Shown one piece after another: positions 4,195 to 63,680 of a DNA stretch of 64,000 nucleotides. Origin of the DNA: Naegleria gruberi. Lineage: Eukaryota. The position numbers were made by a program, and so were the translations under genes. The DNA lies in the NCBI GenBank assembly GCA_000004985.1, contig GG738916.1. One strand, given 5' to 3'. Within the stretch, counting starts at the first letter, position 1, and each line of letters begins with the position of its first letter. The notes beneath the pieces were generated by a model that was given only the letters and a program-made list of their open reading frames with translations, had not been told where the DNA came from and did not search any database.

Positions 4195-6612
4195 ATGTCA
4201 CTTGTTATGTTCAAAGTTCAACCTGTCTGTCAAAATCAAAAAACATCAAAAAAAATGTTTTGCTTTCTCTTGCCCAATCGGAATAGTAGAAATAACAACA
4301 ATACCATCACTTCCATCTCTACCACTTCAAATGTAAATGACCACCTTTCGTCCGAATTATTGTCAATTATACTTTCGTATTTTTCATTCGAAGAGAAAAT
4401 TAGTGTGATGAGATTTGTTTCTAAAACTTGGTTTACTTTCTGTTGGATTAGTACTGATTCCATCAATATTGATGCTAAATGGAGTGAACAATATGTAAAA
4501 TATATTGTAAACAAAGTTATTCAAAAACAAACTCTTCCATATTTGGAAGAATTGACTGTTTCTTCAGAACATGCTCTTACAAATGATTTTCTAGTGGGTG
4601 ATTTCCTAACAAAATCAAGAAAATTGCAAAGACTCTTCTTGAAACAACCCATCAATTCATCTCAATTATTTAATGTCACCAATCATTTGAATAATTTGAC
4701 AAACATTTATTTGAATATTCATAATGTTAAGAATGAAACTCTCATTTCAACATTTAAAGATTTGGATTTTAATGATTTGAGACCAAAGACTGTAATATTG
4801 CCAAAACTCAAGTCGTTAACTTTACAAAATGCACATTTGGATGCTGAACATTCAGCATCGATCCTATTTCTCTTCCTTTTTAAGAATATTTTAGTGAACT
4901 TTTCTAATCATTTGCAATCCAGAACTGATCTTCCATCTACCATTGATTGTAATTTGTTGGAAGAAGTTGAATTAATCAAGTGTGATGGAATTGATGAGAT
5001 TTTTGAAAAATTGGAAAAGATTACAAAAGAATATTGTGAAAAGGAATTAAAGATTTATGGATCTACTGTTGAAAAATCATTCAGAAATTGCATTCCCCTC
5101 AATTCATTGACATTCAAGTTTTGTTCTGATGTTGGAGACAAGGCATGTGTTTCTAGTTCCAAATTATTTAAGAATCTCAACAAGTTGTGGTTTGATAAGA
5201 ATAAGAAACCAACAGAGTTGACCTTTGGTGTTGCTCCACAAAGTGGTTTTACAGGTATTTTGCACGAGAACAATGGATTGGTGTCTGTCTTGTATCAATT
5301 CAGAGATTCTTTGCGGAGTTTAAAGCTGTCAGAGTTTCTTTTCCATACATCAACCACTCCAGAGGATACACCTTACAATTTTACAAAAGTATTGAGTTTA
5401 TTGACGAATTTGAAAGATATTCAACTTGATTTAGGAAGCACCAATACATCAGTCTCGACTCAATCTGTATTTTTAGCTCAGAACATGTTTGAAATTTCGA
5501 ACAGTGTTGAAAGAATAGTTCTCAATGAATGTGGTGATATATTGACACAAGAATTTTGGGATGTCATGACTGGAAACAATGTTAAAGACGAGACTACCAT
5601 TTTTTATCCTAATCTACACACACTCACTGTTCACAGTGGCAAAATGTATAACATTACCTCTAGTTTAATTAGAGAAAATGCATTCCCTAAATTGGAAAAT
5701 GTTACCTTTGACTATTGTTGCAGAATTGAGAGTTTGTACAAGGATGCAAAAGAATCCTCAACTTCAACCTTCGAACAGAATGAAGAAGTCATCACCACCA
5801 ACAAGAAACAATTTAAAAACATTACATTCGATAGATGTATCAGATTGAAACAAGGAATGAATCAATTTATTTCCATGTGCAATCCAAAACTGATTGATAC
5901 GTTTGACTTTTTGCAAATGAAAGAATGCACACGTTATGATTGGTTAGGTAAATTGACCAGTGTGAAGCATGTCAACTTGACCAGCAATATTAATCTCAAG
6001 GATGATGATTTGAAGTATTTGGCAAATTGTGAACAACTTGTCTCACTTTCTCTAGCTCACAACAAGACTCTGAATGGTTCTGGACTCAAATACCTGGCCG
6101 ATTCTACAAGAATTTGTGAAACTTTGCAGTTCCTTAATGTAGATTGGTGTTCCAAATTTGAAGATCAAGCTCTAGAGCATATTTCAAAGTTTACCAATCT
6201 AAGACAATTACACATTTTACATGTAAAGATATTGTCTCGCTTTGATTTATTGAAGAGCTTAACCAAGTTGGAAACTCTGTTGCTTGTTCGTTGTTTCAAC
6301 TTGTCTGACGAGAGTATTATTCCAGTCATTGAAAATTGTAAAGATCTGAAGGTGTTATCACTTCATGGAGGGCATCACGGTTACAATGAAGCCATGTCCA
6401 ATAAGATTTTGAAAGCAATTTCTCAAAATTTACACAATATCAGACATTTGACTGTTAATTTTGCTCCAATCACCAACGATGGCGTTAAATTGCTTGCCAA
6501 ACTTCATTACTTGGAATATTTGGATGTAATGAGAAGTAAGGCATCCGATAAGATTTTAAAATACTTCCCAAACACTTCAGTTGTTCTTGATATCAAACAA
6601 ATATCCCAATAA
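4195..6612 (+). CDS. F-box/LRR-repeat protein (FBXL-like; cysteine-containing LRR subtype).
   Basis: 805-aa ORF. It has an F-box-like segment (LLSIILSYFSFEEKISVMRFVSKTWF). C-terminal repeats with the LRR_cc signature (LKYLANCEQLVSLSLAHNKTLNGSGLKYLADS…LQFLNVDWCSKFEDQALEHISKFTNLRQLHI…). Confidence 0.75.
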   Translation: MSLVMFKVQPVCQNQKTSKKMFCFLLPNRNSRNNNNTITSISTTSNVNDHLSSELLSIILSYFSFEEKISVMRFVSKTWFTFCWISTDSINIDAKWSEQYVKYIVNKVIQKQTLPYLEELTVSSEHALTNDFLVGDFLTKSRKLQRLFLKQPINSSQLFNVTNHLNNLTNIYLNIHNVKNETLISTFKDLDFNDLRPKTVILPKLKSLTLQNAHLDAEHSASILFLFLFKNILVNFSNHLQSRTDLPSTIDCNLLEEVELIKCDGIDEIFEKLEKITKEYCEKELKIYGSTVEKSFRNCIPLNSLTFKFCSDVGDKACVSSSKLFKNLNKLWFDKNKKPTELTFGVAPQSGFTGILHENNGLVSVLYQFRDSLRSLKLSEFLFHTSTTPEDTPYNFTKVLSLLTNLKDIQLDLGSTNTSVSTQSVFLAQNMFEISNSVERIVLNECGDILTQEFWDVMTGNNVKDETTIFYPNLHTLTVHSGKMYNITSSLIRENAFPKLENVTFDYCCRIESLYKDAKESSTSTFEQNEEVITTNKKQFKNITFDRCIRLKQGMNQFISMCNPKLIDTFDFLQMKECTRYDWLGKLTSVKHVNLTSNINLKDDDLKYLANCEQLVSLSLAHNKTLNGSGLKYLADSTRICETLQFLNVDWCSKFEDQALEHISKFTNLRQLHILHVKILSRFDLLKSLTKLETLLLVRCFNLSDESIIPVIENCKDLKVLSLHGGHHGYNEAMSNKILKAISQNLHNIRHLTVNFAPITNDGVKLLAKLHYLEYLDVMRSKASDKILKYFPNTSVVLDIKQISQ

Positions 6613-6627
6613 TTGTACCATAAATAA

Positions 6628-8355
6628 CTATCTATTTCTATAACTGGTCATGCTTGGATTGTATGCTCTATTATTCATATTAGGATTCTGTTGATTGTTA
6701 GTGATAGGTAACAGATTAGCCCTCACACCCATATAATACGAAAGCAAGAGTTCAACAAGGTAAACCAAAACAGTCCTTATTGGAAGATTCATCAAAAACA
6801 CTCTCAACTTGTCAGTTAATCCACTTTCCTTTCTGTAGAATGGATTAAGAAGTGAGTCAGTCTTTGGTGGTGAATCGATCTTGTTATTTAAGGAAATACA
6901 ATGACTTTCCAAATCTTTGAGTTTTTGTTCGTACTCTTCAATAAGTTTCTCCAGGTTATTCTTCTTTGTCTTTCTTGTTTCGGTTTCTTCAAGTCCATTA
7001 GTTGCTGTGGTTAAATTTCTTTCCTTCTTTTTCCTTTTTTTCCTTTCAACTTTTTCTACAGGTTTAACAATAGTTGGTTGACCAACAATTTCCTTTACAG
7101 CACTTCCTAAATCTTCCAGAGCTGGCTTGAACAAACTCAGCAATTCTCTATTGAGAGTTGAGATGGAAACAGCCAAGTGTTCAATTTCATCAATCAGTGT
7201 TTTTACCTGTTCAGTTGATTCCGCTTTCAATAAAGCAAAACAATTATATTTGAACATCCAAGTTGCTACTGCATCCTCTGTATTCATCAATTCCTTGAAA
7301 GTTTTCTTTGATTTTTCAATAAGCACTGCCAATGATTCGTTAATTTTCTTCTTTTTCTTTGATTTTGCATTTGTTTGCACTGAAAGAGCCAAACTTGTCA
7401 AAATATTTGCTAAATTCAATTTCAATTCCTCTATAAATTGTTGAAATTCTTTTGCCCTCTCAATCTTTTCTACAGAAACAAAATTCCTTACATGAAATGA
7501 ATTTTTCAAATAATCTGAATCAACATGAGGATAATTCTCCAATGCTCTTTCTCTTTCAGTTCTTGAATTTGCCTTGGCCATTGTAAAGATATAATCCAAA
7601 CTTGAATCAATCAAATCATACAAATAATAGACAACAATTGATCTCAATCCTTCCTTAATCATTGAAGATAACCAATGAGGAGATGATATTGGATTTTTTC
7701 CTCCATTCAAATCCACACTTTCCAACATCATGAAAACATTTCCAATACTTTCTGATCTGAACTTTCTAAAAAACAAATAATATAGACACGAAACCACCAA
7801 ATGCACAACTCTAAACGATTTCCTTCCAAACATTGACAAATTCTCCAACTCTAACCTTCTCATCTGATTCGAAGTTTCAATAATTTCATCCAACATTTGT
7901 TTCTTCTCCCTCATACGAGCTGATTCCTTCCACAAATAATTCTCAAAATCCGAATCTGCCTCCAAATCCTGATAGAAACCCCTCCTCCCAACCTCTGTCT
8001 GCTCTAGGAATGTAAAAACATCTTGTCTTTGCTTGGTGGCAAGCCTCTCATATTGTTCCGAATCTAAAATTGCTTCTCTCCTCCTCAGCAAACGTTCCAA
8101 AACGTAGGATGAAAATACAATAATCGAATCATCAATTAATAAACTCCAGAAAAGTGATGTAAATCGATTCCGAATAAACGGATTAAACAATGATGATAAT
8201 TGAAAATTATTTAGAAAATTAAATTGTGATGATGATGAATTGTAATAATTGCTTCCGAATGAGTTGTTATTATTGAATCCATAGCTATTATTATTGCTAT
8301 TAAAATTATTAAATTGACTCGAATGATTATTCAAATAATCGAAAGAGTTTTCCAT
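6628..8355 (-). CDS. Hypothetical protein, Asn-rich N-terminus, predicted coiled-coil segments and a Lys-rich stretch.
   Basis: 575-aa uninterrupted ORF with a true ATG at 8355..8353. Dictyostelid-type low complexity (NNFNSNNNSYGFNNNN). No family recognised by eye. Confidence 0.55.
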   Translation of the reverse strand: MENSFDYLNNHSSQFNNFNSNNNSYGFNNNNSFGSNYYNSSSSQFNFLNNFQLSSLFNPFIRNRFTSLFWSLLIDDSIIVFSSYVLERLLRRREAILDSEQYERLATKQRQDVFTFLEQTEVGRRGFYQDLEADSDFENYLWKESARMREKKQMLDEIIETSNQMRRLELENLSMFGRKSFRVVHLVVSCLYYLFFRKFRSESIGNVFMMLESVDLNGGKNPISSPHWLSSMIKEGLRSIVVYYLYDLIDSSLDYIFTMAKANSRTERERALENYPHVDSDYLKNSFHVRNFVSVEKIERAKEFQQFIEELKLNLANILTSLALSVQTNAKSKKKKKINESLAVLIEKSKKTFKELMNTEDAVATWMFKYNCFALLKAESTEQVKTLIDEIEHLAVSISTLNRELLSLFKPALEDLGSAVKEIVGQPTIVKPVEKVERKKRKKKERNLTTATNGLEETETRKTKKNNLEKLIEEYEQKLKDLESHCISLNNKIDSPPKTDSLLNPFYRKESGLTDKLRVFLMNLPIRTVLVYLVELLLSYYMGVRANLLPITNNQQNPNMNNRAYNPSMTSYRNR

Positions 8356-14049: not shown

Positions 14050-14547
14050 TTAAACTTTATCATCATGAAAATTCCAACGAGTATTCTTTGGAGAATGTGA
14101 ACAACTCATTACATAAGTATCATTATCAATTGGTTTCTTCTTTTGAGTTGCACTACTCAACATGGATTGAATCGACATGCAAACACTCTGAATATTCATC
14201 ACAGGTGTCCATCCATCATATAAAATGTTAAGGCAAATATGTCCATTTGTATAGACATGTTCATGGAGAGGAACGTGAGGAGGTACAAATACTACTTCAG
14301 GTGATTGCAATGGATAATCATTGGAAAATGTAAATTTCAAAAGATATTGTTCTCCCGAGTAGATTGTATTTCTTGCTCCGTGTAATGTACAATAAATTGT
14401 TTCTAAATTATTGATTGGTTGATTTATGAAAATATCAATACCAACTCCACTTCCCTGTATGATTTGTCCACTCTGCATTCTCTTCTGATTATCTTCTTGT
14501 TCCTTTACAAGTTTTTGAATTTCCTTTTGAATTCTTTTGGCATACAT
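14050..14547 (-). CDS. Ubiquitin-conjugating enzyme E2, UBE2W-like.
   Basis: 165 aa. UBC fold with catalytic Cys in HVYTNGHICLNILYDGWTPVMNIQSVCMSIQSMLSS. C-terminal KKKPIDNDTYVMSCSHSPKNTRWNFHDDKV matches the UBE2W-specific tail (…PPDNSFYVRTCNKNPKKTKWWYHDD). HPN/HPH motif reads HEH here. Confidence 0.8.
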   Translation of the reverse strand: MYAKRIQKEIQKLVKEQEDNQKRMQSGQIIQGSGVGIDIFINQPINNLETIYCTLHGARNTIYSGEQYLLKFTFSNDYPLQSPEVVFVPPHVPLHEHVYTNGHICLNILYDGWTPVMNIQSVCMSIQSMLSSATQKKKPIDNDTYVMSCSHSPKNTRWNFHDDKV

Positions 14548-14822: not shown

Positions 14823-15977
14823 TTACTGTTCGTCATGATCTGCAAATTTCCAAATGTAAATAGTAAGTGTGGCAGCTGCTACTGCTAAAATTACACCCCA
14901 AATAGCCAAAGACTGATTGATGAGAGAATCGTTTGCTGGTGGTTTCCATTCTTCTTGTTTTTTGTTTTTCTTTCGTTTGTTAGAGAGAAGAGGTTGTCCA
15001 ATTGTCATGGCATTGGTCATCTTTGGAGGAATTTGATTCTTCTTTGGAAGTGGTTGACTTGGTTCAATATTAAATCCAAGAGCTTGTAAAATTGGTGAGA
15101 GAGGAGATCTAGGTGAGTGAACTGGAGAGGAGAAGGTAGCTGATTGTGGTGAGAGAGGGCTTGGATAGTTCTTGAGATATTCATCATTGAGAAGTTGTTC
15201 TTTGGTCTTTTCTAGATCGTCTTCTGAGCTTTCTTCATCTGAAATTTCCAAATTGGACAGCAGGGTTGAATCATCATTGGTGAGTTCACTAATTCTATCC
15301 TTTGAAGTGATGTGAACTGTGCACAGTTTATCATAGCAGGAGATTAAATTCATAAAATTAGGTTTTGGCACTTGGAATGGAATATTTCTGATTGGTAGAC
15401 TCTTTAGGTCCATTTCGTTCCACAATAATTGTTCAATCATATCTCTATTAATGTTACCAGGACAATAGACGAATGAGCAGTAAACTTTTTGTTGACCTTC
15501 TCCATCAAAATATTTCTTCCAAGTTTCAGTTAATAATTCGGTCAACTTTTCCTGGAATTTCACCTCTTGATTTCTTCTAATTTCACTACCGGCAGATTTT
15601 GCCTTATGTCCAGTTTGAATGTCGTGTTGTAATTGTCTTCCTCCTTGCTTCTTTCTAGATACATAATTCGAAAAAGTCTTGTGAACTATTGCCTTCCCTA
15701 AGGATGGATCAAAAATTGCTCCAGAAAAGTGTCCACCATGCATAATACACACAAAAATCAAATCACTCTTTGATTGAGGCAGCATGAATTTATATTCCTC
15801 CTGATTAAACCACGCATTCCAAAAAGTTAAATATTTATCATCATCAATTTCCAATCCGAACAATCCAGGAATTTGATTTAAATTCTTTTCAATCTTTTTC
15901 AATGGTTCTTGTTGAAAGAGGGCCACAATTTCCTCCTGATTAATTTTATATTTTCCCACTTTATGTTCCATCATCAT
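14823..15977 (-). CDS. VLRF1-domain protein (Vms1/ANKZF1-type release-factor-like domain) with C-terminal transmembrane tail.
   Basis: True ATG at 15977 (the track start at 15980 is TTG). Segment IFVCIMHGGHFSGAIFDPSLGKAIVHKTFSNYVSRKKQGGRQLQHDIQTGHKAKSAGSEIRRNQ resembles the VLRF1 core (HAGYFAGAI…HKTFHRYTVRAKRG.AQ… in ANKZF1, recalled from memory). C-terminal hydrophobic helix AIWGVILAVAAATLTIYIW. No ankyrin or zinc-finger modules. Confidence 0.45.
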   Translation of the reverse strand: MMMEHKVGKYKINQEEIVALFQQEPLKKIEKNLNQIPGLFGLEIDDDKYLTFWNAWFNQEEYKFMLPQSKSDLIFVCIMHGGHFSGAIFDPSLGKAIVHKTFSNYVSRKKQGGRQLQHDIQTGHKAKSAGSEIRRNQEVKFQEKLTELLTETWKKYFDGEGQQKVYCSFVYCPGNINRDMIEQLLWNEMDLKSLPIRNIPFQVPKPNFMNLISCYDKLCTVHITSKDRISELTNDDSTLLSNLEISDEESSEDDLEKTKEQLLNDEYLKNYPSPLSPQSATFSSPVHSPRSPLSPILQALGFNIEPSQPLPKKNQIPPKMTNAMTIGQPLLSNKRKKNKKQEEWKPPANDSLINQSLAIWGVILAVAAATLTIYIWKFADHDEQ

Positions 15978-16360
15978 CAAAAGCCTAGAATATTAAACTA
16001 TTTAATATTTAAATATATTATTAATAAATAGATGGTTAAATTATTCTACAATCCTATCCGATAAAAAAGTCTGTTGACGATGAAAAGATTACTATTACAA
16101 TAGAGAGAGACACCTAGTTATCTTTTGATATTTTTTTATAATCAAATTTCGAATATTTGTGACTTTTTCCCGCCAATTACAATAATTTCTTTTTTACTTC
16201 ATTAAAGAGAATGCTCTTCATCAGATCTCGCACTTGCCCTTTATTGTTCTGGAAAACTTCAAGGCAATTAGAGCATTCTGGTTGACAAACATCAAATAAA
16301 CTTTATTAAAAAAAAATAGAAGAAACAAATTCCTATTCTTTGAATCATCACTGAATACAT

Positions 16361-18787
16361 ATGCCCAATCATTCTAAATTATTTAGTAGTAAATTACATC
16401 ACAGCGAGGACGATGATGATATCTTCTCATCAGCTTCATCGGGAGGTTCATCAGCTTCCTCCGATCTGATCGATGTTCTGATCAAGAATACAACATCATC
16501 ACTGAAGGGGAAATCATCACTCGATTTTAAATCACTCCCAACAGGGATTATATTGAAAATTATTAGAGAGTATTATATTTTGGATTTGACTCAGTATTTT
16601 ACAATTTTAGTGAGAATGATTTATCACAAGTATAGAAATAACAAGACGAATGGTTTCTTTTTGATGAAATTGTTTTTTGGAAGGGTGAAGAAGGAAAGGT
16701 CTTTGGGATTTATGGATAAATATGACATGTCTTTGAATCCATTGTTTAATTCATTGACAAGTATTTCGAATAGTAGTAGTGTTAATACGGACAGTTGTTC
16801 AACAAGTGTTGGTTCTAACAAGTCGGAGGAAAATGAAAGAGTAGTCGTTTCCCTTTTCAAAAATGTATCATTATCAATAGAGCAAAGTTTTGTCGATCAA
16901 GAACAAGCAAAACACAAACATTACTATCAAATGATTGTTTGGTTGCATCAAATGTCAACATTGGAGTTTTTGTTTGGAGGAATACCACTGAATTATGTGG
17001 AATGGAATGTTCCTTATCCAGCCATTTTGGCCTCAGCTTTAAATAATCATGATTCCAATACACAATTGTTGGAAGAGATGAATTCCTCTCAGGTGGTAGT
17101 TGCTGGAGCTAAAAGTAATAGAAAATTTATTATTCGATCAGATGAACAATTTGAGGATTTGAATAGAAATCGTGTGAATAGCTTAATTCAAAATACACTT
17201 TATACGAGTAAGGAGGAAAAGACAGTGCTCAATTCTGATATATTATTCTACATTTACTTGAATGGAGTAAAGAGTGCCAAGTTGAAACTCTCTAATTTTG
17301 ACCTAGGTTTCGATCACATGACAACAAACAAGAGTAAGACTAATTTATTTTATTTGGAAAATATTGATTACCAAGGAAATAGTGATATGATGATGGAAGC
17401 ACTCAAATATTCAAAGAATATCAAGTTCTTAAACTTTATTGACTTTCCATTATCAGATCTGACCCACCTTTCGAATAACATGTTAAAATTATCACTGGAA
17501 ATTGCCAACATTTTCAATATCAAGGGAATTGAAAATATTGGAAAAATGGAAAAGCTTACCGAGCTGAAAATCATTATTGCAAAAAGTTTGCTGACAACCA
17601 CAATGAATAATTGCGATCCAATCATTGAAAAATTACAATTACAAAATCTTGACAAACTTAGGAAATTCCATCTCGAGAAAGAACCAACTATTAACTGTTC
17701 TGATTATAGAATTTTACTCAAATTGGTCAATTGCTTAACTAGCAAATTGAGAGAATTAACGTTTGCACGATTTCCTTATCCCAATATGGTTCATTCCCTT
17801 GTTAGAGAAAGATTTACAGAATTGAATTCTCTTATAATCAATGAGCCAACCATGTTGGAATTTTATGATGAACCAGTTCAATTTGATGGATTGGAACACT
17901 TTACACTCAAACTTTCCCCACAAATAGTGGCAGAAAACTCGAATTCGACTGTTAATTTACAATGCAAATTGACCAGTACCCAATTCGAGAATTTAAAGTT
18001 TAACTTCACAAATTCAAACTCTCTATGTTTCAATTTGGCTCCAAAGAATGCTTCAAATTACAAGAGTCATATTGTTGATAGTTTGGTCAATCAGGTTTTT
18101 GATAAGAACTCTCACATCTATGTCATCAGTTTTACAAATACTAGAATATCAAAACTCGAATCCATCTCTCACATGTTTCAGAAACCAAATTTTGTTCACG
18201 TACAAGTCCTCAATTTACTGCATTGTCTCAAACCAGAAATGTCAGTCACTCCAGAACTCGTGGATCAATTGGGAAAATCCTGTCCAAACCTAATTACACT
18301 CAAATGGTCTAATTTCAAGGAAAAGAAATGCTTTGAACATTTACAAAAACACTACAGACACCAACTACAGAATCTTTCTCTAAGACATTGTATTATTAGT
18401 AATTCTAAAGCTTTCGGATATCTATTCTCCATGAGTAAGCTCAAAAAGTTCTCACTCCAACTAGATCAAGCATTCCCTGCAAACTTCCATCAAACCATTT
18501 CCACACCACTTTTGACCTCCAAAACTACTTCAAATGGAAACGCTGATGAGCAATCAATTACTCAAGAAAATTCAACCACAATTCTATCTCTCTACAATGG
18601 ATGTTCTAATTTGGAATTATTTTCACTCGAAACTCCTGCATTTACAGATCCACAAGTATTGAGAGAATTATTTTCTAAAAAGAATAGAAATTTAACAAGA
18701 TTAACGATTCAAATCACTTCAAATAAGGATCAATTAGATACTCTACACGAAATTCTCAAAGAAGTTCAAAATGGAAAATTCAAATAA
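16361..18787 (+). CDS. Leucine-rich-repeat protein (probable F-box/LRR-like substrate-adaptor family member).
   Basis: 808-aa single ORF with ATG at 16361. Acidic/Ser-rich N-terminus, then many L-x-x-L-x-L repeat units (LKLSLEIANIF…LTELKIIIAKSL…LQNLSLRHCIISNSKAFGYLFSMSKLKKFSLQ). An F-box is not clearly recognisable. Confidence 0.55.
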   Translation: MPNHSKLFSSKLHHSEDDDDIFSSASSGGSSASSDLIDVLIKNTTSSLKGKSSLDFKSLPTGIILKIIREYYILDLTQYFTILVRMIYHKYRNNKTNGFFLMKLFFGRVKKERSLGFMDKYDMSLNPLFNSLTSISNSSSVNTDSCSTSVGSNKSEENERVVVSLFKNVSLSIEQSFVDQEQAKHKHYYQMIVWLHQMSTLEFLFGGIPLNYVEWNVPYPAILASALNNHDSNTQLLEEMNSSQVVVAGAKSNRKFIIRSDEQFEDLNRNRVNSLIQNTLYTSKEEKTVLNSDILFYIYLNGVKSAKLKLSNFDLGFDHMTTNKSKTNLFYLENIDYQGNSDMMMEALKYSKNIKFLNFIDFPLSDLTHLSNNMLKLSLEIANIFNIKGIENIGKMEKLTELKIIIAKSLLTTTMNNCDPIIEKLQLQNLDKLRKFHLEKEPTINCSDYRILLKLVNCLTSKLRELTFARFPYPNMVHSLVRERFTELNSLIINEPTMLEFYDEPVQFDGLEHFTLKLSPQIVAENSNSTVNLQCKLTSTQFENLKFNFTNSNSLCFNLAPKNASNYKSHIVDSLVNQVFDKNSHIYVISFTNTRISKLESISHMFQKPNFVHVQVLNLLHCLKPEMSVTPELVDQLGKSCPNLITLKWSNFKEKKCFEHLQKHYRHQLQNLSLRHCIISNSKAFGYLFSMSKLKKFSLQLDQAFPANFHQTISTPLLTSKTTSNGNADEQSITQENSTTILSLYNGCSNLELFSLETPAFTDPQVLRELFSKKNRNLTRLTIQITSNKDQLDTLHEILKEVQNGKFK

Positions 18788-21567: not shown

Positions 21568-23320
21568 ATGCTTTCTTTTTTACGCAAGGCTTTGACACAC
21601 AACAATAACAATAATAATAACAATAAGAATAACAATACTGATAACAATAATAATAATAATAGTGATAACAATCATTTTATTCCTAATGATATTTTAATAA
21701 TAATATTTCAATTTCTTAATCAACAAGATTATATAAAAATATCATTTGTTTGTAGATATTGGAGATTTGTTGTTCAACAACCATTCCGAAAGGAATTTAC
21801 AAATTTTATTTTAAACTCTTCATATTCAATAGTTTATTGTACATTTATTATTAATGCATTTGAGTTTTTTAAATTCTTTTCTTCCATAACATTATAACAC
21901 TGTACCTGAATCAACATTTAAAACTCTGCTTTCTTCAATGAAATTACAAAGTTTATTTATTGATTCTTGTGTTGTTAAAAATAATATACCATTCAATTCT
22001 GTAAAACAATCTAATATAACTGAATTAGGATTAAATTGTAAAATGAAAAAGAAAGATTTACGTGCTTTATTTATTGTAATTCCAAATTTGAAACATTTAA
22101 GTTTAGGAATGGTAGTAACCGAATGTTTAATTAACACAGAATCATTTCTGAGTACACATTGTCATAAATTAGAAACACTCCATTTACAATTATTACCTGA
22201 AAATCAAAAAAAAATTGTAAAATTATTACATGGAATATTTAATCCATCAACAACAATATCCAATCTCATTGATATTAGAATATTTGTAACAGATAATAAT
22301 CCAACAAGTAATAGAAAATTAAATAATTTTACATTTAATTTTAATTCATTTCCAAATTTAAAATATTTATTTCTTGATATTACCTATATTTATACATTAG
22401 AATCAATTAGTAATGTATTAAATTCAAATAATATTTCAAAATTACAAGAATTTGGATTTGGAACTATTAGAAAAGCTATTGAAAAATTACAATTTAATTC
22501 GAGTGAAAATTTACAAAATTTAAAAAAATTATTTTTAAATAGAACAGAAATGATGACAAATATTGATAATCTTCCTTCATTAGAATTATTATATATAGAT
22601 GAATATGCAAAAAAACATTATTCCGCTACAAAATATTCAAAACCATGGAATTTAGCATCTAATGTGAAAATGCCATCTCTAAAATATTTACATTTAAATC
22701 TTTTTAATGAAACTCATTTACCTGATCGATTAAATGTGGAACCATTTAAAAATATTAAATATTTTTATTTTGAATCTGAATATAATATTGATTTATCAGA
22801 ATTGAGTAAATTAAATTTAGAAATATTAATTCTTAAAATTTCTGAAGAATATAATAAGAATATACTTCATCACATTTCTAAAATATCAACATTGAGAGAT
22901 TTAACATTTAGTAATCCTATTAGTGAAATTGATTTGAAATTACTTTGTAAATTACCAAATTTAGAATATCTGAATATTAGATTGGAATTTTATAGTGAAA
23001 CATCTTTTACTTTTAATTCACTAACTACACTCTCAATTCATTCAAAAAATTTGAAAGGATTAAATTTCTTTCAAATATCAAATTTACCAAAATTTAAAAC
23101 TTTACTAATTCGTAATCCTTATGATAATAACTATACATGGTGGTTGCAACCATTATTTCCAAATTTACAAATAATTAAAGCAAGTACTGACAGTTTTGGA
23201 ATATTTTTAACATCTCAATATAATGATGATATGAATTTTGGTGAGTATGAAGTTTCACAAAGAGCAGCAAATCATTTCCAAAATGAAAACGTATGGCTCT
23301 TTCCAAAAAAATTTATTTAA
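21568..23320 (+). pseudogene. F-box/LRR protein, paralog A of the 27373..29145 gene, disrupted by an 8-bp indel (frameshift) at about 21885-21890.
   Basis: About 95% nucleotide identity to 27373..29145 over gene plus about 150 bp of 3' flank. Paralog B reads cttccataacattatttttccataatactgtacc where A reads cttccataacattataacactgtacc. This splits A into ORFs 21568..21897 (F-box part, IPNDILIIIFQFLNQQDYIKISFVCRYWRFVV) and 21938..23320 (LRR part). Confidence 0.6.
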
Positions 23321-24031
23321 TATTAAAGCTCTGTATCAGAGGTTTCTCCTTGGTCACAGTTGATTTTTTAGAAGGATCTCCTTCAGCCAATATCTTTGGT
23401 TTCAAATGGTGAATTCAAGCAAGCCAATGCTGAGAAGGCCAAAGTTGACAATGATTATGTTTGTAAACATTTCAAATCCTATTTTTCAAAAAATTCAAAT
23501 AAAAAGTTGGTACATCATCATAGTTGTTATTTATCATCATTATAAAAGCCTCTTGGATGGTTCAAGAGATGCTGAATTCAAATGTTATAGAGATTGAACA
23601 GAATATTGTTGTACATTATATTTATTGTACCCAAGAAGGAACTTTTGGAATAAAGGACAGTTCCTTCAAGTTTACCAATTCAAATGCCTTTCATTTGGAA
23701 TAAGCCAAGCTCCCAGGAACTCACCAAGATTATGAAAAAACTGGTAACCAAGTGGAGACAACAAGGTATTATTTTGTTCCTAAAATTCAGAAAGAAAAGG
23801 GTGTCTTTACTCCCTGACTCAAACTGAAGCAATTTAGACTTCAAACGTAATATTTCCATCATTTGCAAGCCTAAGAACTGAAAAAGGATAAGGAATTGCT
23901 TTAGTGTTGAGAAATGAAGGAGAATTTTGTGAAGAATTAAGACAGGCCAAAATTAAATCCTTACAAGTCTGATTTCTAACTTGGAAAATTTATTTATTTA
24001 TTGATTGGCCCATGGTTTTACCTCATTTCCA

Positions 24032-26504
24032 TTATTTTCTGTTTACTCTCAACCAATAATCGATAATAACTTTCAAGAAATTATTGCATGGTATATTTTC
24101 TTGACAAGATAATTGGATTTTTTGTAAATAATCAAGAGTTAAATTATTTGAGCAAAATATCTTGAAATACTCAACTAGCTCTCTACAATCATTATTATTT
24201 TGTGAAACTGAAGCTAAATTTAGTAATATAATAAATTCAGTATCATTAATGGAATATAATTTTTCAACAATCAAGATACAGACATGTTTAACAATCCATG
24301 TAATATCCAATTGTTGTGCAATGATTAAAATACCAACCAAATCATTCAATTTAAGGTAATTGAACTCATATCCATAACATAATTTACATATGATTTGTAA
24401 TATTGTATTAATTTTAGCTGAATTATTGAACAAATCAATAATCCAATGATCTGATACCATCATTTCAATGAATTCATACAAGTCAACCACATTATTTTCA
24501 TTATTTTTAAATAGAATATTTAAAACTGAACTATGAACGGATAGAATTGATTTATGTAATTGCAATAATTCATTTTTATCCTTATTAATAATTACATGAA
24601 TATCACTATTACTTTCATCATTATATAATAATTTTAATGATTCAGTTACATTTTTGGCAATATTTTCAAGATTATCAATTTTATAATTAATTTGTTTAAA
24701 TGGTTGTTTAACATTATTAATTTTATCTTGAATAATTTCGAATAATGGATCTGATTTCAATAAAGTTGCATTTTCTTTAATAAATGCAAGACACTTATTT
24801 GCCAACAATAGCAAAATACTATTTTTAGCTTGTTTTAAAATATTTAAAGAAAGATAATTATTAACTATTCGTAAAATCCTCATAATGTTATCTACATTCA
24901 TTCTATTTGAAATGTCATTAAATAACAATAATTTAATTTCATGCTTGATATCATTAATATCATTTAATATAAATAGACAAGTTACTAAATTTAATTCTAA
25001 TTCTCCAAATGAAATGAAATTAATAAATTTATCATAATTACTAAATAAATCATCTATATTTAAACAATTTAAATCAATAATTGCGTTTTTAATTAAATAA
25101 TATAAAACTTTTTGGTCATTCTCATTTAAATGTTCAATTATATCATTTTTAATTAAATTATAAAAATCATTTGAAATATTTTTTAATAAATTTAAATCTA
25201 AATAAAAATTAGAATTAATTTCATAATTGAACTTAAAATTATCAGTTACCATAATATCATTAATCTTGAGACTATTCTCATTATCTGTTTCATGAATAAA
25301 AATAGTAAAATTTTTACCACAACAAATTTGAATTTCATCACCTTCCTTAATAGTAAATGGTAATTCAATTAATTTTAGTTCATTGGCTGATTTATTAGCA
25401 TATCCTAATTCGCCAAATTCATTAGATCCAAATGAATAGAACTTTTGGTCTACTGTTTGCAAAACACTGTGGAAGGTACCACTTTCCATATTAATAATAT
25501 TATCCATATTTGCTTGTTTAGAATTATAGTCAATATATTTGCATTCATTATTATATAACGATAAAATTTGATATTCATTCAATATTAATTGATCATAATT
25601 TTTCTCAAATTTAAACTCATTATAATTATTATGTAATTTAATTACTTTTTTAGGATTGTAATAATCTGCCAAGCCATAATCAATTAAAGTATAATCTAGA
25701 ATTTACAATAGAAGAATCATTAAAAATAATGAAACTAGTTCTTCCATTACATTTAATATCCTTAATATCTTCAATATTCTTATTAACTAATTTGGTAACA
25801 TTCATAAAATTATTTAAGGTAAAATAATCTTCAACATGTAATTTACCATTTACAATACTTTCAATTACAAATGGTTGGAATGATTGTGAATATTCATTCA
25901 TTCCACAAACATACAATTCATTTTCAAATGTTGTGAAAAATGTCAAATGAAATGTTACAAATATTTTGTTTACTTTTAACTTTTCTAAATTTGTATTTTG
26001 TAATAAATTAACGGCTACATCATTTGATTTTTTAGCAATGATAGCCAATTGTCCATGTTCATTATTACCAATACCAAATATGGAATTTAATTTAGATAAA
26101 AATACAACATGTTCTTTACCAATCGCAAAATCAATAATTTTGTCACTAGTATTTAAATTATTAAATTTAATCAATGTAGGAATATTAGAAATATTATTAA
26201 TAAATGAACAATTTCCCATTTTGTAAACATATCCCTTACGCGTAAGAAATATGCACAATTGATCTTGACTTTTAAATTTAATAATCTTATCATTAATTAA
26301 ATAATTTTGTAAATAATCAATTTTATCAAAACATGTATCATTTAATTTTGTAACAGTAATAATATCACTTTGTTTCTTCCAGAATCCATCTCCGCATCCG
26401 TAAACAAATTGTGATTTAGAAGAATTAATACCGAAAGCAGTGTTATTAGGTTCTGTTTCGTCGTCCACTACTTGATCAACATGGTGAATGGTGAATTGAT
26501 TCAT
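24032..26504 (-). CDS. RCC1-repeat and BTB-like domain protein (RCBTB-like), present as two ORFs in different frames.
   Basis: ORF 26504..25680 (true ATG at 26504) and ORF 25672..24032 (track start is a TTG). RCC1-like blades (GIGNNEHGQLAI, YSFGSNEFGELGY). A BTB-like segment (LQLHKSILSVHSSVLNILFKNNENNVVDLYEFIEMM). Very Asn/Ile-rich. The junction at 25672..25682 needs a -1/+1 shift or a non-canonical short intron. Confidence 0.5.
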
Positions 26505-27372
26505 TTTTTTTTATAGAGTGGTCTCTCGGTTGTTATTGATACAAGAGACATTAATAAACTTGTACACCTTTTATTTTGTTATAGATTGTTACAACAAATA
26601 TTGTGCTTACTCAGCATTGCATTCATTGGTTTTGTCTAGCTAGATCGGCGGAAATGAAATCTCATTCGTGTGATTGATGTGAGAGATGTTACGCGCCAAA
26701 ATTTCTACACCAAAAAATAAGCAAAGCCACTTTTTCGAACTCTTATTTGAAAATCCATTAAGGAAATTAAACTCTCAGTACTTTCAAGAAATACCTCTAC
26801 TCATCATCATTGGTATTTAATTCAATCAACATAAATCAGCATCAATTTGGAATATTTCAATTAGAGTAGCTGGGATACATCTCACCAAAAGTAATAAGAG
26901 CAATATTGTGTGATGGTGTTTCTTCTTGGAATGAAGAAAGTTGCCAACCTCGGAAATATCAAACATTATCATTAAGCTGTAATTCAACATCACATTATAT
27001 TTATTTTTATATTAATAGTAATACTTGTTCATTAGGAATTTCTTCAACTAATTAATATATTTTCATCATGAATTCCAAAAACATTGTATGATTATTAGGG
27101 ATGTCTAATCTAATATCACCATCAAGAGAGTTGGATTATTTGTATTCATCGAGTTGTGGAATTTTACTTCATCATACCTTATCATCAGCAAGCTCACTTC
27201 AGATCATTAAGGTAAATATCTTAATGGTCATCATCAACCAGTTGCAGATTAAAACTGTGATTTAATGTCTCAATTAAGTTGATTGCTATGTTTGGAAAAT
27301 ACACGAACGATTCAATATTTCAATTTTTAAAAAGGAAGGAAGATTCTTCATGACTTTCAAAAAATTAAAAAA

Positions 27373-29145
27373 ATGCTTTCTTTTTTGCACAAGGCTTTGA
27401 CACACAACAATAACAAGAATAACAATAATAATACTAATAATACTAATAACAATACTGATAACAATAATAATAGTGATAACAATAATTTTATTCCCAATGA
27501 TATTTTAATAATAATATTTCAATTTCTCAATCAACAAGATTATATAAAAATATCATTTGTTTGTAGATATTGGAGATTTGTTGTTCAACAACCATTCCGA
27601 AAGGAATTTACAAATTATATTTTAAACTCTTCATATTCAATAGTTTATTGTACATTTATTATTAATGCATTTGAGTTTTTTAAATTCTTTTCTTCCATAA
27701 CATTATTTTTCCATAATACTGTACCTGAATCAACATTTAAAGCTCTACTTTCTTCAATGAAATTACAAAGTTTATTTATTGATTCTTGTGTTGCTAAAAA
27801 TAATATACCATTCAATTCTATAAAACAATCTAATATAACTGAATTAGGATTAAATTGTAAAATGAAAAAGAAAGATTTACGTGCTTTATTTATTGCACTT
27901 CCAAATTTGAAACATTTAAGTTTAGGAACGGTAGTAACAGAATGTTTAATTAGCACGGAATTATTTCTGAGTACACATTGTCATAAATTAGAAACACTCC
28001 ATTTACAATTATTACCTGAAAATCAAAAAAAAATTGTAAAATTATTAAATGGAATATTTAATCCATCAACAACAACAATATCCAATCTCATTGATATTAG
28101 AATATTTGTAAAAGAATATTATACAACAAGTAATAGAAAATTACATAATTTTACATTTAATTTTAATTCATTTCCAAATTTAAAATATTTATTTCTTGAT
28201 ATTACCTATATTTATACATTAGAATCAATTAGCAATGTATTAAATTCAAATAATATTTCAAAATTACAAGAATTTGGATTTGGAACTATTAGAAAAGCTA
28301 TTGAAAAATTACAATTTAATTCGAGTGAAAATTTACAAAATTTAAAAAAATTATTTTTAAATAGAACAGAAATGATGACAAATATTGATAATCTTCCTTC
28401 ATTAGAATTATTATATATAGATGAATATGCAAAAAAACATTATTCCGCTACAAAATATTCAAAACCATGGAATTTAGCATCTAATGTGAAAATGCCATCT
28501 CTAAAATATTTACATTTAAATCTTTTTAATGAAACTCATTTACCTGATCGATTAAATGTGGAATCATTTAAAAATATTAAATATTTTTATTTTGAATCAG
28601 AATATAATATTGATTTATCAGAATTGAGTAAATTAAATTTAGAAATATTAATTCTTAACATTTCTTTAAAATATAATAAGAATATATTTCATCACATTTC
28701 TAAAATATCAACATTGAGAGATTTAACATTTAGTAATCCTATTAGTGAAATTGATTTGAAATTACTTTGTAAATTACCAAATTTAGAATATCTTTATATT
28801 ACATTGGAATTTTATAGTGAAACATTTTTTACTTTTAATTCACTAACTACACTTTCAATTCATTCAGATAATTTGAAAGAATTAAATTTCTTTCAAATAT
28901 CAAATTTACCAAAATTGAAAACTTTACTAATTCGTAATCCTTTTGATAATAACCATACATGGTGGTTGCAACAATTGTTTCCAAATTTACAAATAATTAA
29001 TGCAAGTACTAACAGTATAGGAATATTTTCAACATCATCTCAATATAATGATGGTATGAATTTTGGTGAGTATGAAGTTTCACAAAGAGCAGCAAATTAT
29101 TTACAAAATGAATATGTATGGCTCTTTCCAAAAAAATTTATTTAA
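27373..29145 (+). CDS. F-box/LRR-repeat protein (intact paralog B).
   Basis: 590-aa uninterrupted ORF. Poly-Asn N-terminus, F-box (IPNDILIIIFQFLNQQDYIKISFVCRYWRFVV), then LRRs (LPNLKHLSLGTVVTECL…LPNLEYLYITLEF…). Confidence 0.75.
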   Translation: MLSFLHKALTHNNNKNNNNNTNNTNNNTDNNNNSDNNNFIPNDILIIIFQFLNQQDYIKISFVCRYWRFVVQQPFRKEFTNYILNSSYSIVYCTFIINAFEFFKFFSSITLFFHNTVPESTFKALLSSMKLQSLFIDSCVAKNNIPFNSIKQSNITELGLNCKMKKKDLRALFIALPNLKHLSLGTVVTECLISTELFLSTHCHKLETLHLQLLPENQKKIVKLLNGIFNPSTTTISNLIDIRIFVKEYYTTSNRKLHNFTFNFNSFPNLKYLFLDITYIYTLESISNVLNSNNISKLQEFGFGTIRKAIEKLQFNSSENLQNLKKLFLNRTEMMTNIDNLPSLELLYIDEYAKKHYSATKYSKPWNLASNVKMPSLKYLHLNLFNETHLPDRLNVESFKNIKYFYFESEYNIDLSELSKLNLEILILNISLKYNKNIFHHISKISTLRDLTFSNPISEIDLKLLCKLPNLEYLYITLEFYSETFFTFNSLTTLSIHSDNLKELNFFQISNLPKLKTLLIRNPFDNNHTWWLQQLFPNLQIINASTNSIGIFSTSSQYNDGMNFGEYEVSQRAANYLQNEYVWLFPKKFI

Positions 29146-29282
29146 CATTAAAGCTCTGTATCAGAAGTTTCTCCTTGGTCAAATCTGAATAGTGAATTCA
29201 AGTAAGGCCAAAGTTGACAATGTTCAATGAATAATGTTTGTAAACATTTCAAATCCTATTTTCAAAAAATTCAAATAAAAAA

Positions 29283-55841: not shown

Positions 55842-56160
55842 CACCGAATAGTCACTGAATGTTTACCATATAATAACCGAATGGTTACTGAATATTTATT
55901 GAATAGTTACCCACCAATTTCATTCCTTTACCCAACAATCAACCGACTACCAACCAACTAACACTGAACTAAAACGGTCAGGCGATTATGGGCTGATATT
56001 CGATTAATTTCTGGAAAATCGTTCAGTTATTTTCGGAAACAAGTTGGGGGAAATTAGGGTTGTAGTCGGTGGTAGTAGGGTTGTGGATGGGGTTTAGACG
56101 GAACATAGCCAACTAAAAACCAACTATAACACTGTCTATTACCCAAGTACTCCACTCTTA
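55842..56160. repeat. Compositionally atypical GC-richer block with internal direct/inverted sub-repeats, bounded by an assembly gap; possible repetitive-element fragment.
   Basis: Motifs agtcactgaatg / ggttactgaatat / cgttcagttatt recur. caaccgactaccaaccaactaac is partially mirrored by ggttgtagtcggtggtagtagggttgtgg. The block replaces the upstream region seen in front of the first NHL gene copy. Confidence 0.3.
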
Positions 56161-56179
56161 GGAGAGAGCTCGAGATGAA

Positions 56180-63185: not shown

Positions 63186-63680
63186 NNNNNNNNNNNNNNN
63201 NNNNNNNNNNNNNNNNNNNNNNNNNNNNNNNNNNNNNNNNNNNNNNNNNNNNNNNNNNNNNNNNNNNNNNNNNNNNNNNNNNNNNNNNNNNNNNNNNNNN
63301 NNNNNNNNNNNNNNNNNNNNNNNNNNNNNNNNNNNNNNNNNNNNNNNNNNNNNNNNNNNNNNNNNNNNNNNNNNNNNNNNNNNNNNNNNNNNNNNNNNNN
63401 NNNNNNNNNNNNNNNNNNNNNNNNNNNNNNNNNNNNNNNNNNNNNNNNNNNNNNNNNNNNNNNNNNNNNNNNNNNNNNNNNNNNNNNNNNNNNNNNNNNN
63501 NNNNNNNNNNNNNNNNNNNNNNNNNNNNNNNNNNNNNNNNNNNNNNNNNNNNNNNNNNNNNNNNNNNNNNNNNNNNNNNNNNNNNNNNNNNNNNNNNNNN
63601 NNNNNNNNNNNNNNNNNNNNNNNNNNNNNNNNNNNNNNNNNNNNNNNNNNNNNNNNNNNNNNNNNNNNNNNNNNNNNNNN
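63186..63680. other. Assembly gap (495 N) removing the 5' part of the minus-strand membrane glycoprotein gene.
   Basis: Run of n. Confidence 1.

What the first reader, a model, noticed from the sequence alone, without database searches (positions are those of the whole stretch)
14823..15977. Membrane-anchored VLRF1-domain protein lacking the usual Vms1/ANKZF1 accessory modules
The core HGGHFSGAIF…HKTFSNYVSRKKQGGRQ resembles the VLRF1 release-factor/nuclease-like domain that acts on stalled ribosomal peptidyl-tRNA. Here it is not combined with zinc-finger, ankyrin or VIM modules. It ends in a single hydrophobic helix, suggesting a tail-anchored variant. That location would suit quality control at the ER or mitochondrial surface.
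Basis: partly seen in the sequence, partly recalled or inferred. Interest (0 to 1): 0.5.

Follow-up and report, generated by a model that had tools for sequence, protein, structure and literature searches.

The report
Membrane-anchored Vms1-like ribosome rescue factor
This Naegleria gruberi gene joins the enzyme domain that frees unfinished proteins from stalled ribosomes (the Vms1/ANKZF1 type) to a C-terminal membrane anchor through a long floppy linker; related amoebae share the arrangement, no paper found here describes it, and it suggests a rescue factor fixed to an organelle surface, most likely the ER.

Summary

No zinc finger, ankyrin, VATC, VIM or F-box was found. A roughly 125-residue disordered acidic/Ser-Pro linker leads to one hydrophobic helix, followed by nine acidic residues. 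That is the layout of a tail-anchored protein.

The whole architecture recurs in N. fowleri, N. lovaniensis, Willaertia magna, Acrasis kona and environmental relatives. On the catalytic domain alone these 14 proteins form one clade (bootstrap 165/200). Acrasis also has a soluble paralog with an F-box-like N-terminus, so the anchored form is probably a specialised paralog rather than the only release factor.

The anchor (GRAVY 2.25, tail charge -2) fits the ER rules drawn from yeast and mammals. The most likely function is release of peptidyl-tRNA from 60S subunits docked on the membrane. Localisation and activity are inferred, not shown.

No paper found here describes this architecture. I rate it a new variant of a known kind, of moderate interest.

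The parts
14823..15977 (-). Complete single-exon CDS of the tail-anchored VLRF1 protein, from the first ATG at 15977 (NCBI model XP_002670395.1 starts at 15974) to the stop codon at 14823-14825
   Evidence: ORF list. 100% identity to N. gruberi predicted protein P0001. It is the only VLRF1 domain in the 64-kb window.
15765..15974 (-). N-terminal element (aa 1-70 of the 383-aa protein): strand-helix-strand-strand, packed on the catalytic core. It carries the clade motifs G(R/K)YK and NQIPGL. It is not an F-box.
   Evidence: AlphaFold block-mean pLDDT 75-91, elements E7-10, H14-20, E38-44, E47-52. Conserved in alignment A4. No F-box Pfam hit. hhalign against the F-box-type clade aligns only the core.
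15303..15755 (-). VLRF1 (Vms1-like release factor 1) catalytic domain, RNase H-like fold
15633..15656 (-). Catalytic loop motif RKKQGGRQ. The last Gln (Q114 in 383-aa numbering) aligns with the yeast Vms1 catalytic Q295 of the GxxQ motif.
   Evidence: phmmer alignment to Vms1. R, G and Q are invariant in 204 of 204 VLRF1 domains. The role of Q295 is taken from PMC7026593.
14919..15290 (-). About 125-residue disordered linker. In order: an acidic/Ser cluster, the motif EYLKNYPSPLSP, the motif SPRSPLSPILQALGF, and a Lys-rich patch just before the anchor.
   Evidence: pLDDT below 50 over most of residues 235-346, except short predicted helices at about 259-268 and 294-298. Composition S17 P15 E11 D7 K12. 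Motifs are conserved in the clade.
14853..14909 (-). Transmembrane tail anchor LAIWGVILAVAAATLTIYI
   Evidence: GRAVY 2.25, Hessa sum -1.36, and the only such segment in the protein. AlphaFold helix 348-378. Conserved in all 11 aligned clade members.
14826..14852 (-). Nine-residue acidic C-terminal (predicted lumenal) tail WKFADHDEQ, net charge -2
   Evidence: Orthologs carry acidic, Tyr-rich tails such as DDYY, EEYYYETN and EDYTKE.

Best explanation
The gene encodes a catalytically competent Vms1/ANKZF1-type release factor that is tail-anchored in a membrane. Its N-terminal VLRF1 domain faces the cytosol on a flexible tether of about 125 residues. The proposed mechanism has four steps. (1) The protein is made on free ribosomes and inserted post-translationally through its single C-terminal helix, most likely into the ER. 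The Lys-rich patch stays on the cytosolic side and the short acidic tail goes to the lumen. (2) When a ribosome translating at the membrane stalls and is split, the 60S subunit stays docked and still carries peptidyl-tRNA. (3) The tethered VLRF1 domain enters the vacated A site and places its GxxQ loop (Q114) at the peptidyl-transferase centre. There it severs the nascent chain from the tRNA, as Vms1/ANKZF1 do by cleaving the acceptor arm or CCA end. (4) This frees the chain and the subunit. Because it lacks VIM, ankyrin and zinc-finger modules, it does not recruit Cdc48/p97 the canonical way; membrane tethering replaces soluble recruitment modules. Shown here: domain identity, intact catalytic residues, tail-anchor topology features, and conservation as a distinct clade. 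Inferred: which membrane, the substrate, and the activity.
For: Domain identity and fold. Family-invariant residues are retained (R107, G111, Q114, G129, R133, R134, E137). Predicted topology follows established descriptions of the fold: three beta-strands, then a low-confidence flexible loop carrying the Gln, then a helix that begins with two Arg, as described for VLRF-1 in PMC6514570. Tail-anchor criteria are met: one TMD, 9 residues from the C-terminus, no N-terminal hydrophobic signal. Conservation: the same N-terminal element, VLRF1 domain, acidic/SP linker, basic patch, TMD and short acidic tail occur in N. fowleri, N. lovaniensis, Willaertia magna, Acrasis kona and environmental relatives. 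The clade is monophyletic on the catalytic domain alone, 165/200 bootstraps. [quoted passage not shown] Paralog specialisation: Acrasis kona has both the anchored protein (KAL0481407.1) and a soluble one (KAL0490060.1) that falls in the sister group. The function of the family as a peptidyl-tRNA-cleaving release factor on 60S comes from PMC7026593. The release step in ER-RQC is described as not understood in PMC12047416.
Against: There is no experimental localisation or activity for any member. The TA-targeting rules come from yeast and mammals and are untested in Heterolobosea. Some clade members have weaker anchors or different tails: Acrasis has Hessa +2.2, and P0153 ends in KSK with charge +2. 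The residue before the catalytic Gln is Arg, not the 'tiny' residue of the published GxuQ motif (PMC6514570). However, Arg is the commonest residue at that position among the 204 relatives sampled. I could not recover a second Naegleria VLRF1 protein with the capped searches, so 'specialised paralog' in Naegleria itself rests on Acrasis and on one sentence in the literature. Neighbouring genes give no support: the adjacent UBE2W-like E2 is not syntenic in N. fowleri or Acrasis.
Confidence: 0.55

Rival explanations
1. The enzyme and anchor are the same, but the membrane is the mitochondrial outer membrane. This would hard-wire the role that soluble yeast Vms1 plays when it protects mitochondria from stalled, co-translationally imported precursors.
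For: Yeast Vms1 accumulates on mitochondria and rescues ribosome-stalled mitochondrial polypeptides (PMC7026593). The best structural match is the 'Vms1 mitochondrial localization core', 5whg. Some clade members have less hydrophobic anchors (GRAVY 1.74-1.99) or a basic tail (P0153 KSK).
Against: In Naegleria the TMD is strongly hydrophobic (GRAVY 2.07-2.37) and the tail is acidic (-2 to -4) in four of four species. In yeast and mammals, mitochondrial tail anchors combine lower hydrophobicity with positive tail charge (PMC5450235).
Confidence: 0.15
2. It is the general ribosome-quality-control release factor of Naegleria. The anchor would serve only to concentrate or restrain it, for example by keeping a dangerous peptidyl-tRNA-cleaving enzyme away from translating cytosolic ribosomes. 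There would be no specific link to membrane-bound ribosomes.
For: No second Naegleria VLRF1 protein surfaced. The long disordered tether would allow action on nearby free 60S particles.
Against: Acrasis has a soluble paralog alongside the anchored one. Burroughs & Aravind report an F-box-VLRF1 protein in Naegleria (PMC6514570), and this protein has no F-box. My searches could not query by organism, so absence of a paralog is not established.
Confidence: 0.15
3. The domain has been put to a task outside ribosome quality control, such as membrane-localised tRNA or RNA cleavage, or a non-catalytic block of ribosomes at the membrane.
For: The clade lacks all modules that connect canonical Vms1 to Cdc48 and the 60S zinc-finger site. 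Conserved Ser/Thr-Pro motifs in the linker hint at regulation by phosphorylation.
Against: All family-invariant catalytic and rRNA-binding positions are kept under clear purifying selection across the clade. Inactive relatives in the superfamily typically lose the Gln (PMC6514570).
Confidence: 0.1
4. The C-terminal helix is an artefact of gene prediction or read-through, and the real protein is soluble.
For: None beyond the general error rate of automated models. A few unrelated hits do end in odd hydrophobic stretches that look like read-through (P0114, P0118, P0122).
Against: The ORF is uninterrupted in the raw DNA. The anchor, the basic patch before it and the acidic tail after it are conserved in independently assembled genomes of five named species.
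Confidence: 0.02

Closest known systems
Yeast Vms1 / human ANKZF1 (canonical eukaryotic VLRF1 release factors of ribosome-associated quality control)
   Different: No Rei1-like C2H2 zinc finger, no ankyrin repeats, no VATC treble clef, and no VIM for Cdc48/p97. Instead there is a disordered acidic/Ser-Pro linker and a C-terminal transmembrane anchor. Canonical Vms1 is soluble and is recruited to organelles conditionally. Arg replaces the small residue before the catalytic Gln.
F-box-like + VLRF1 proteins of ciliates and heteroloboseans (architecture noted by Burroughs & Aravind 2019; e.g. Paramecium A0C9S0, Acrasis KAL0490060.1)
   Same: These are the nearest sequence relatives outside the anchored clade. 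They have the same RKKQG(G/K)RQ type of loop and also lack zinc-finger, ankyrin and VIM modules.
   Different: They carry a weak N-terminal F-box or F-box-like match (Pfam E 5.8e-5 to 0.27). They end right after the VLRF1 domain, with no linker and no membrane anchor. The N. gruberi protein has no F-box by Pfam, hhalign or predicted structure.
bVLRF-1 of Bacteroidetes/Heimdallarchaeota (stand-alone prokaryotic VLRF1)
   Same: Minimal architecture: N-terminal extension plus VLRF1 core, without the eukaryotic accessory modules. The Pfam model that matches is named after this family.
   Different: These are prokaryotic and soluble. Nothing in the published description (PMC6514570) mentions a membrane anchor or a disordered linker.
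Pth2/PTRH2, the membrane-anchored peptidyl-tRNA hydrolase of the mitochondrial outer membrane (recalled from memory, not tested here)
   Same: A functional analogy only: an enzyme that acts on peptidyl-tRNA and is fixed to an organelle surface facing the cytosol.
   Different: An unrelated fold, an N-terminal rather than C-terminal anchor, and action on free peptidyl-tRNA rather than inside the 60S A site.

Membership tests
VLRF1 (Vms1-like release factor 1) domain family, eukaryotic branch | Significant match to the VLRF1 profile (Pfam PF18826) above the curated cut-off | tested here: met
   113.3 bits against a cut-off of 27, E 1.2e-32, covering profile positions 2-144 of 145
VLRF1 (Vms1-like release factor 1) domain family, eukaryotic branch | Catalytic glutamine in a GxxQ loop between strand 3 and the first helix of the RNase H-like core | tested here: met
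   G111-G-R-Q114 aligns with yeast GGSQ (Q295). G and Q are invariant in 204/204 relatives. The loop lies between E94-102 and H128-151 in the models.
VLRF1 (Vms1-like release factor 1) domain family, eukaryotic branch | Tiny residue (Ser/Ala) immediately before the catalytic Gln (the GxuQ motif of Burroughs & Aravind 2019) | tested here: not met
   The residue is Arg (GGRQ). Arg is in fact the commonest residue at this position in the 204 protist-biased relatives sampled (114 R, 47 S, 15 A, 15 K). The published motif therefore seems too narrow, and this does not count against membership.
VLRF1 (Vms1-like release factor 1) domain family, eukaryotic branch | Conserved arginines at the start of the helix after the catalytic loop (rRNA binding) | tested here: met
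   R133 and R134 in SAGSEIRRNQE; R is present in 204/204 and 198/204 relatives
VLRF1 (Vms1-like release factor 1) domain family, eukaryotic branch | Fold closest to the solved Vms1 structure, then to eRF1/aRF1/Pelota | tested here: met
VLRF1 (Vms1-like release factor 1) domain family, eukaryotic branch | Release of nascent chains from 60S-peptidyl-tRNA (tRNA acceptor-end cleavage or hydrolysis) | not testable with these tools
   Needs a biochemical assay
Canonical Vms1/ANKZF1 orthologs (multi-domain architecture) | N-terminal Rei1-like C2H2 zinc finger | tested here: not met
   No Pfam zinc-finger hit at E<=10. No C2H2 regex match, and only 5 Cys in the protein.
Canonical Vms1/ANKZF1 orthologs (multi-domain architecture) | Ankyrin repeats and the VATC/VTC treble clef C-terminal to VLRF1 | tested here: not met
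   No Ank or PF18716 hit. The region after the domain is predicted to be disordered. As a positive control, the Pyxidicula homolog P0156 does give Ank hits.
Canonical Vms1/ANKZF1 orthologs (multi-domain architecture) | VIM (RX5AAX2R helix) that binds Cdc48/p97 | tested here: not met
   No regex match in the Naegleria proteins. The only relaxed-pattern match in the clade lies inside the catalytic domain of P0210. No SHP box either.
Tail-anchored membrane proteins | A single transmembrane segment within about 30 residues of the C-terminus and no other hydrophobic segment or signal peptide | tested here: met
   TMD at 356-374 of 383 with 9 residues after it. Next best segment has Hessa +7.8. Maximum Kyte-Doolittle value over the N-terminus is 0.15.
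Tail-anchored membrane proteins | Post-translational insertion (GET/TRC40 or EMC) with the N-terminal domain in the cytosol | not testable with these tools
   Inferred from the Lys-rich patch before the TMD and the acidic tail after it
F-box + VLRF1 architecture reported for Naegleria and ciliates | N-terminal F-box domain | tested here: not met
   No F-box hit in P0001-P0004 at E<=10. The predicted N-terminus is strand-helix-strand-strand at block-mean pLDDT 75-91, not a three-helix F-box. hhalign against the F-box clade aligns only residues 71-225.

The most novel reading that the evidence does not exclude
Heteroloboseans split the Vms1 job between two paralogs. One is a soluble form with an F-box-like N-terminus. 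The other is this dedicated, ER-membrane-anchored release factor, which clears peptidyl-tRNA from translocon-docked 60S subunits without Cdc48 recruitment modules. That would be an organelle-specific release step for ribosome quality control, hard-wired by a tail anchor. It would be a natural solution to the step that is still unexplained in animal ER-RQC. It would also have arisen independently of the zinc-finger/ankyrin/VIM elaboration seen in animals, fungi and plants.
Probability: 0.35. Interest if true: 0.65.

Novelty: new variant of a known kind. Interest (0 to 1): 0.5.

Why it matters
Vms1/ANKZF1 is the enzyme that frees unfinished proteins from split, stalled ribosomes. How that step is brought to ribosomes sitting on organelle membranes is poorly understood. 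In yeast, soluble Vms1 is recruited to mitochondria conditionally. In mammalian ER-RQC, the timing and agent of peptidyl-tRNA cleavage are described as not understood (PMC12047416).

A lineage that permanently tethers the catalytic domain to a membrane would be a natural experiment. It has dropped, or never acquired, the Cdc48-, zinc-finger- and ankyrin-based recruitment modules. It would show which parts of the canonical protein are needed for catalysis and which for targeting. It also offers a minimal, roughly 230-residue catalytic unit for biochemistry.

It refines the evolutionary account of the family as well. The published survey lists only an F-box version for Naegleria. Finally, N. fowleri, the brain-eating amoeba, carries the ortholog, with a lineage-specific architecture that differs from human ANKZF1.

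Tried and rejected
1. F-box at the N-terminus of this protein, to reconcile it with Burroughs & Aravind's 'F-box in Naegleria'. Rejected: no Pfam hit, a non-helical predicted fold, and hhalign aligns only the core.

2. Search for a second Naegleria VLRF1 protein. Three word-indexed searches and one exhaustive profile search (only the top 150 of 1650 listed) found none. The tools cannot be restricted to one organism. One search returned only proteins of 338 aa or fewer, and one search scored only 8000 candidates. The question stays open; a paralog was found only for Acrasis.

3. Conserved gene neighbourhood. The UBE2W-like E2 directly downstream looked suggestive, but neither it nor the 808-aa upstream gene is next to the N. 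fowleri or Acrasis ortholog.

4. Cdc48-binding motifs (VIM, SHP) and FFAT-like motifs in the linker. No VIM or SHP was found. Only loose 'IFDV/VFNL' matches occur in some non-Naegleria members, which is too weak to use.

5. NCBIfam gave no hit, as expected for a eukaryotic protein.

6. AFDB Foldseek was unavailable.

7. My first monophyly test failed. It wrongly included P0241, a separate anchored VLRF1 from another clade, and omitted three cluster mates. It was corrected.

8. The supplementary files of PMC6514570 are not held, so the accession behind the 'Naegleria F-box' statement could not be checked.

Full report
**What is there**

The window is Naegleria gruberi nuclear DNA at about 33% GC. 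The minus-strand ORF 14823..15980 is 100% identical to the N. gruberi 'predicted protein' XP_002670395.1 / EFC37651.1 / UniProt D2VZY7 / NAEGRDRAFT_53615, 383 aa. The DNA reads TTG ATG ATG ATG GAA at the start. The ORF is uninterrupted. The orthologs begin with the same G(R/K)YK element, so the N-terminus is complete and no upstream exon hides a zinc finger. This is the only VLRF1-encoding segment in the 64-kb window.

**Domain identity**

- Pfam PF18826 (bVLRF1, the Pfam VLRF1 model) matches ORF residues 76-226 at E 1.2e-32, 113 bits against a cut-off of 27. Nothing else reaches E<=1.
- phmmer against PDB sequences finds only yeast Vms1 entries (6r84, 5whg, 6r86) at E about 4e-6. RKKQGGRQ sits on the yeast RRKQGGSQ, and SAGSEIRRNQE on SAGSALRRYNE.
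- Two AlphaFold models were made. One used 7 sequences (mean pLDDT 66.8). The other used the 11 clade members (mean pLDDT 70.2, with block means for residues 1-230 mostly 75-95 and only the catalytic loop lower).
- Both models show three consecutive beta-strands (71-102), a low-confidence loop carrying the Gln, and a long helix that begins with the Arg pair. This is the layout Burroughs & Aravind describe for the VLRF-1 clade (PMC6514570).
- In a 204-sequence alignment of full-length VLRF1 domains, the N. gruberi protein keeps the positions that are invariant or nearly so across the family: R107, G111, Q114, G129, R133, R134 and E137.
- Q114 aligns with yeast Q295, the Gln of the GxxQ motif (PMC7026593).
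- The one departure from the published 'GxuQ' motif is an Arg before the Gln. Arg is the majority residue at that position in this protist-rich sample.

**What is absent**

No zinc-finger, ankyrin, VATC or F-box Pfam hit appears, even at E<=10. There is no C2H2, VIM (RX5AAX2R) or SHP regex match. As a control, a canonical homolog from Pyxidicula does give ankyrin hits in the same scan.

**The tail**

After the domain comes a segment with pLDDT below 50 over most of residues 235-346. It is rich in Ser, Pro, Glu, Asp and Lys. Then comes a single hydrophobic helix.

| Feature | Value |
|---|---|
| Anchor sequence | LAIWGVILAVAAATLTIYI, residues 356-374 of 383 |
| Kyte-Doolittle mean (GRAVY) | 2.25 |
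| Summed Hessa dG | -1.36 |
| Next best segment in the protein | +7.8 |
| Residues after the anchor | 9 (WKFADHDEQ, net charge -2) |
| Flank before the anchor | Lys-rich patch |
| N-terminal hydrophobic signal | none |
| AlphaFold helix | 348-378, block-mean pLDDT about 74-92 |

These are the defining features of a tail-anchored protein with its bulk in the cytosol.

**Is it real and conserved?**

- The word-indexed search found orthologs in N. fowleri (533 aa), N. lovaniensis (535 aa) and a metagenomic Naegleria-like contig (429 aa).
- The exhaustive profile search over 1.84 billion cluster representatives found 1650 VLRF1 proteins at E<=0.001.
- Among the best 150 were further proteins with the same layout. 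They come from Willaertia magna (KAL9646011.1), Acrasis kona (KAL0481407.1) and several environmental contigs. Both named species are heteroloboseans.
- The 11-sequence alignment shows a shared plan, in this order: N-terminal G(R/K)Y...PGL element; VLRF1 with RKKQG(G/K)xQ; an acidic stretch; an aromatic residue followed by (S/T)P-L-(S/T)P; a basic patch; the TMD; and, in most members, a short acidic and often Tyr-rich tail.
- A neighbour-joining tree was built from the catalytic domain only (148 columns, 204 sequences). It places the 14 anchored proteins in one clade, with 165 of 200 bootstraps.
- The anchor therefore marks a genuine subfamily. It is not an annotation accident.
- Two anchored VLRF1 proteins fall outside this clade: a canonical zinc-finger/ankyrin-type protein from the amoebozoan Pyxidicula, and the environmental protein P0241. 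They suggest the idea arose more than once.

**Relation to the published Naegleria architecture**

Burroughs & Aravind (2019) state that Naegleria and some ciliates have an F-box fused to the VLRF1 core. Their text never mentions a membrane anchor.

The closest non-anchored relatives of the N. gruberi protein are proteins of about 300-400 aa. They have a weak N-terminal F-box or F-box-like match (Pfam E 5.8e-5 to 0.27) and a VLRF1 domain at the very C-terminus. Paramecium proteins are among them.

The N. gruberi protein is not of this type:
- It has no F-box hit.
- Its N-terminus is predicted with good confidence to be strand-helix-strand-strand.
- hhalign against the F-box clade aligns only residues 71-225.

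Acrasis kona has both kinds. The anchored one is KAL0481407.1. The soluble one, KAL0490060.1 (partial), falls in the sister group of the anchored clade, and its relative P0298 carries the best F-box-like match.

So heteroloboseans most likely carry two paralogs, and the one in this window is the anchored paralog. I could not retrieve the Naegleria soluble paralog itself, because the searches cannot be restricted by organism and are capped.

**How it most likely works**

Established for the family: Vms1/ANKZF1 bind the 60S subunit left after a stalled ribosome is split. They insert the VLRF1 domain into the A site and sever the nascent chain from the tRNA by cutting the acceptor end (PMC7026593).

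Shown here: the N. gruberi protein has that domain with all key residues intact. The domain is linked by a disordered stretch of about 125 residues to a tail anchor.

Inferred:
- The protein sits in a membrane with its catalytic domain in the cytosol, on a tether long enough to reach the subunit interface of a 60S docked at a translocon.
- It releases peptidyl-tRNA there.
- Membrane tethering replaces the zinc-finger, ankyrin and VIM recruitment modules.

The membrane is most likely the ER. In all four Naegleria-type proteins the anchor is strongly hydrophobic (GRAVY 2.07-2.37) and the tail is acidic (-2 to -4). In yeast and mammals, a hydrophobic TMD (above 1.75 in yeast) with low tail charge directs proteins to the ER, while positive tails direct them to mitochondria or peroxisomes (PMC5450235). 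These rules are untested in Heterolobosea, and some distant clade members deviate, so a mitochondrial location stays a live alternative. In mammalian ER-RQC, the peptidyl-tRNA cleavage step is explicitly described as not understood (PMC12047416). That gap is what makes a hard-wired ER version interesting.

**Context that did not help**

The gene 276 bp downstream on the same strand encodes a UBE2W-like E2 (E 1.2e-39 to 2mt6). The divergent upstream gene encodes an 808-aa protein with no Pfam match. Neither is adjacent to the ortholog in N. fowleri or Acrasis. The neighbourhood therefore carries no functional signal.

**Novelty and verdict**

Databases already label the N. fowleri and N. lovaniensis orthologs automatically as 'VLRF1 domain-containing protein'. 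The domain call is therefore not new.

I found no description of the following in the searchable literature:
- the conserved tail-anchored architecture;
- its status as a separate heterolobosean clade beside a soluble paralog with an F-box-like N-terminus;
- its likely ER placement.

The one evolutionary survey of the family lists a different architecture for Naegleria.

I rate it a new variant of a known kind, with interest about 0.5. Localisation and activity remain to be tested.

Noticed in passing
window 14050-14547 (- strand): A 165-aa ubiquitin-conjugating enzyme whose best solved relative is human UBE2W (2mt6_A, E 1.2e-39), the E2 known for N-terminal ubiquitylation. It lies 276 bp downstream of the VLRF1 gene on the same strand. 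It is not adjacent to the VLRF1 ortholog in N. fowleri or Acrasis, so the pairing looks coincidental.
   Followed up: yes
window 16361-18787 (+ strand): An 808-aa ORF divergently oriented to the VLRF1 gene, with a 380-bp intergenic region. It has no Pfam match at E<=1. By eye it has leucine-rich-repeat-like periodicity and a Ser/Asp-rich N-terminus.
   Followed up: partly
L001 (Acrasis kona JAOPGA020000762.1) 6001-7298, and protein P0147 (KAL0490060.1): Acrasis kona encodes two VLRF1 proteins: a tail-anchored one (its gene contains an intron) and a soluble one with a long N-terminal region related to F-box-like VLRF1 proteins. This points to a two-paralog system in Heterolobosea.
   Followed up: partly
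protein P0156/P0262 (Pyxidicula operculata transcriptome) and P0241 (JGI environmental): A canonical VLRF1-plus-ankyrin protein from an amoebozoan, and an unrelated environmental VLRF1 protein, also end in a hydrophobic helix. This suggests that C-terminal membrane anchors were gained independently in the family.
   Followed up: partly
alignment A4, C-terminal tails (N. gruberi window 14826-14852): The few residues after the anchor are acidic and often Tyr-rich across most of the clade (DDYY, EEYYYETN, DLSYYDSQ, EDYTKE). This is unusual conservation for a lumenal stub and is unexplained.
   Followed up: no
alignment A4, linker (N. gruberi window about 15090-15190): Conserved short motifs in an otherwise disordered linker: an aromatic residue followed by (S/T)P-L-(S/T)P (EYLKNYPSPLSP), and SPxSPLSP followed by a hydrophobic/aromatic patch (ILQALGF / FFGF). 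They could be proline-directed phosphorylation or docking sites.
   Followed up: no
window 22000-30000, 56000-58000 and 62000-64000: Stretches of markedly lower GC (21-27%) than the window average of about 33%. Not examined.
   Followed up: no
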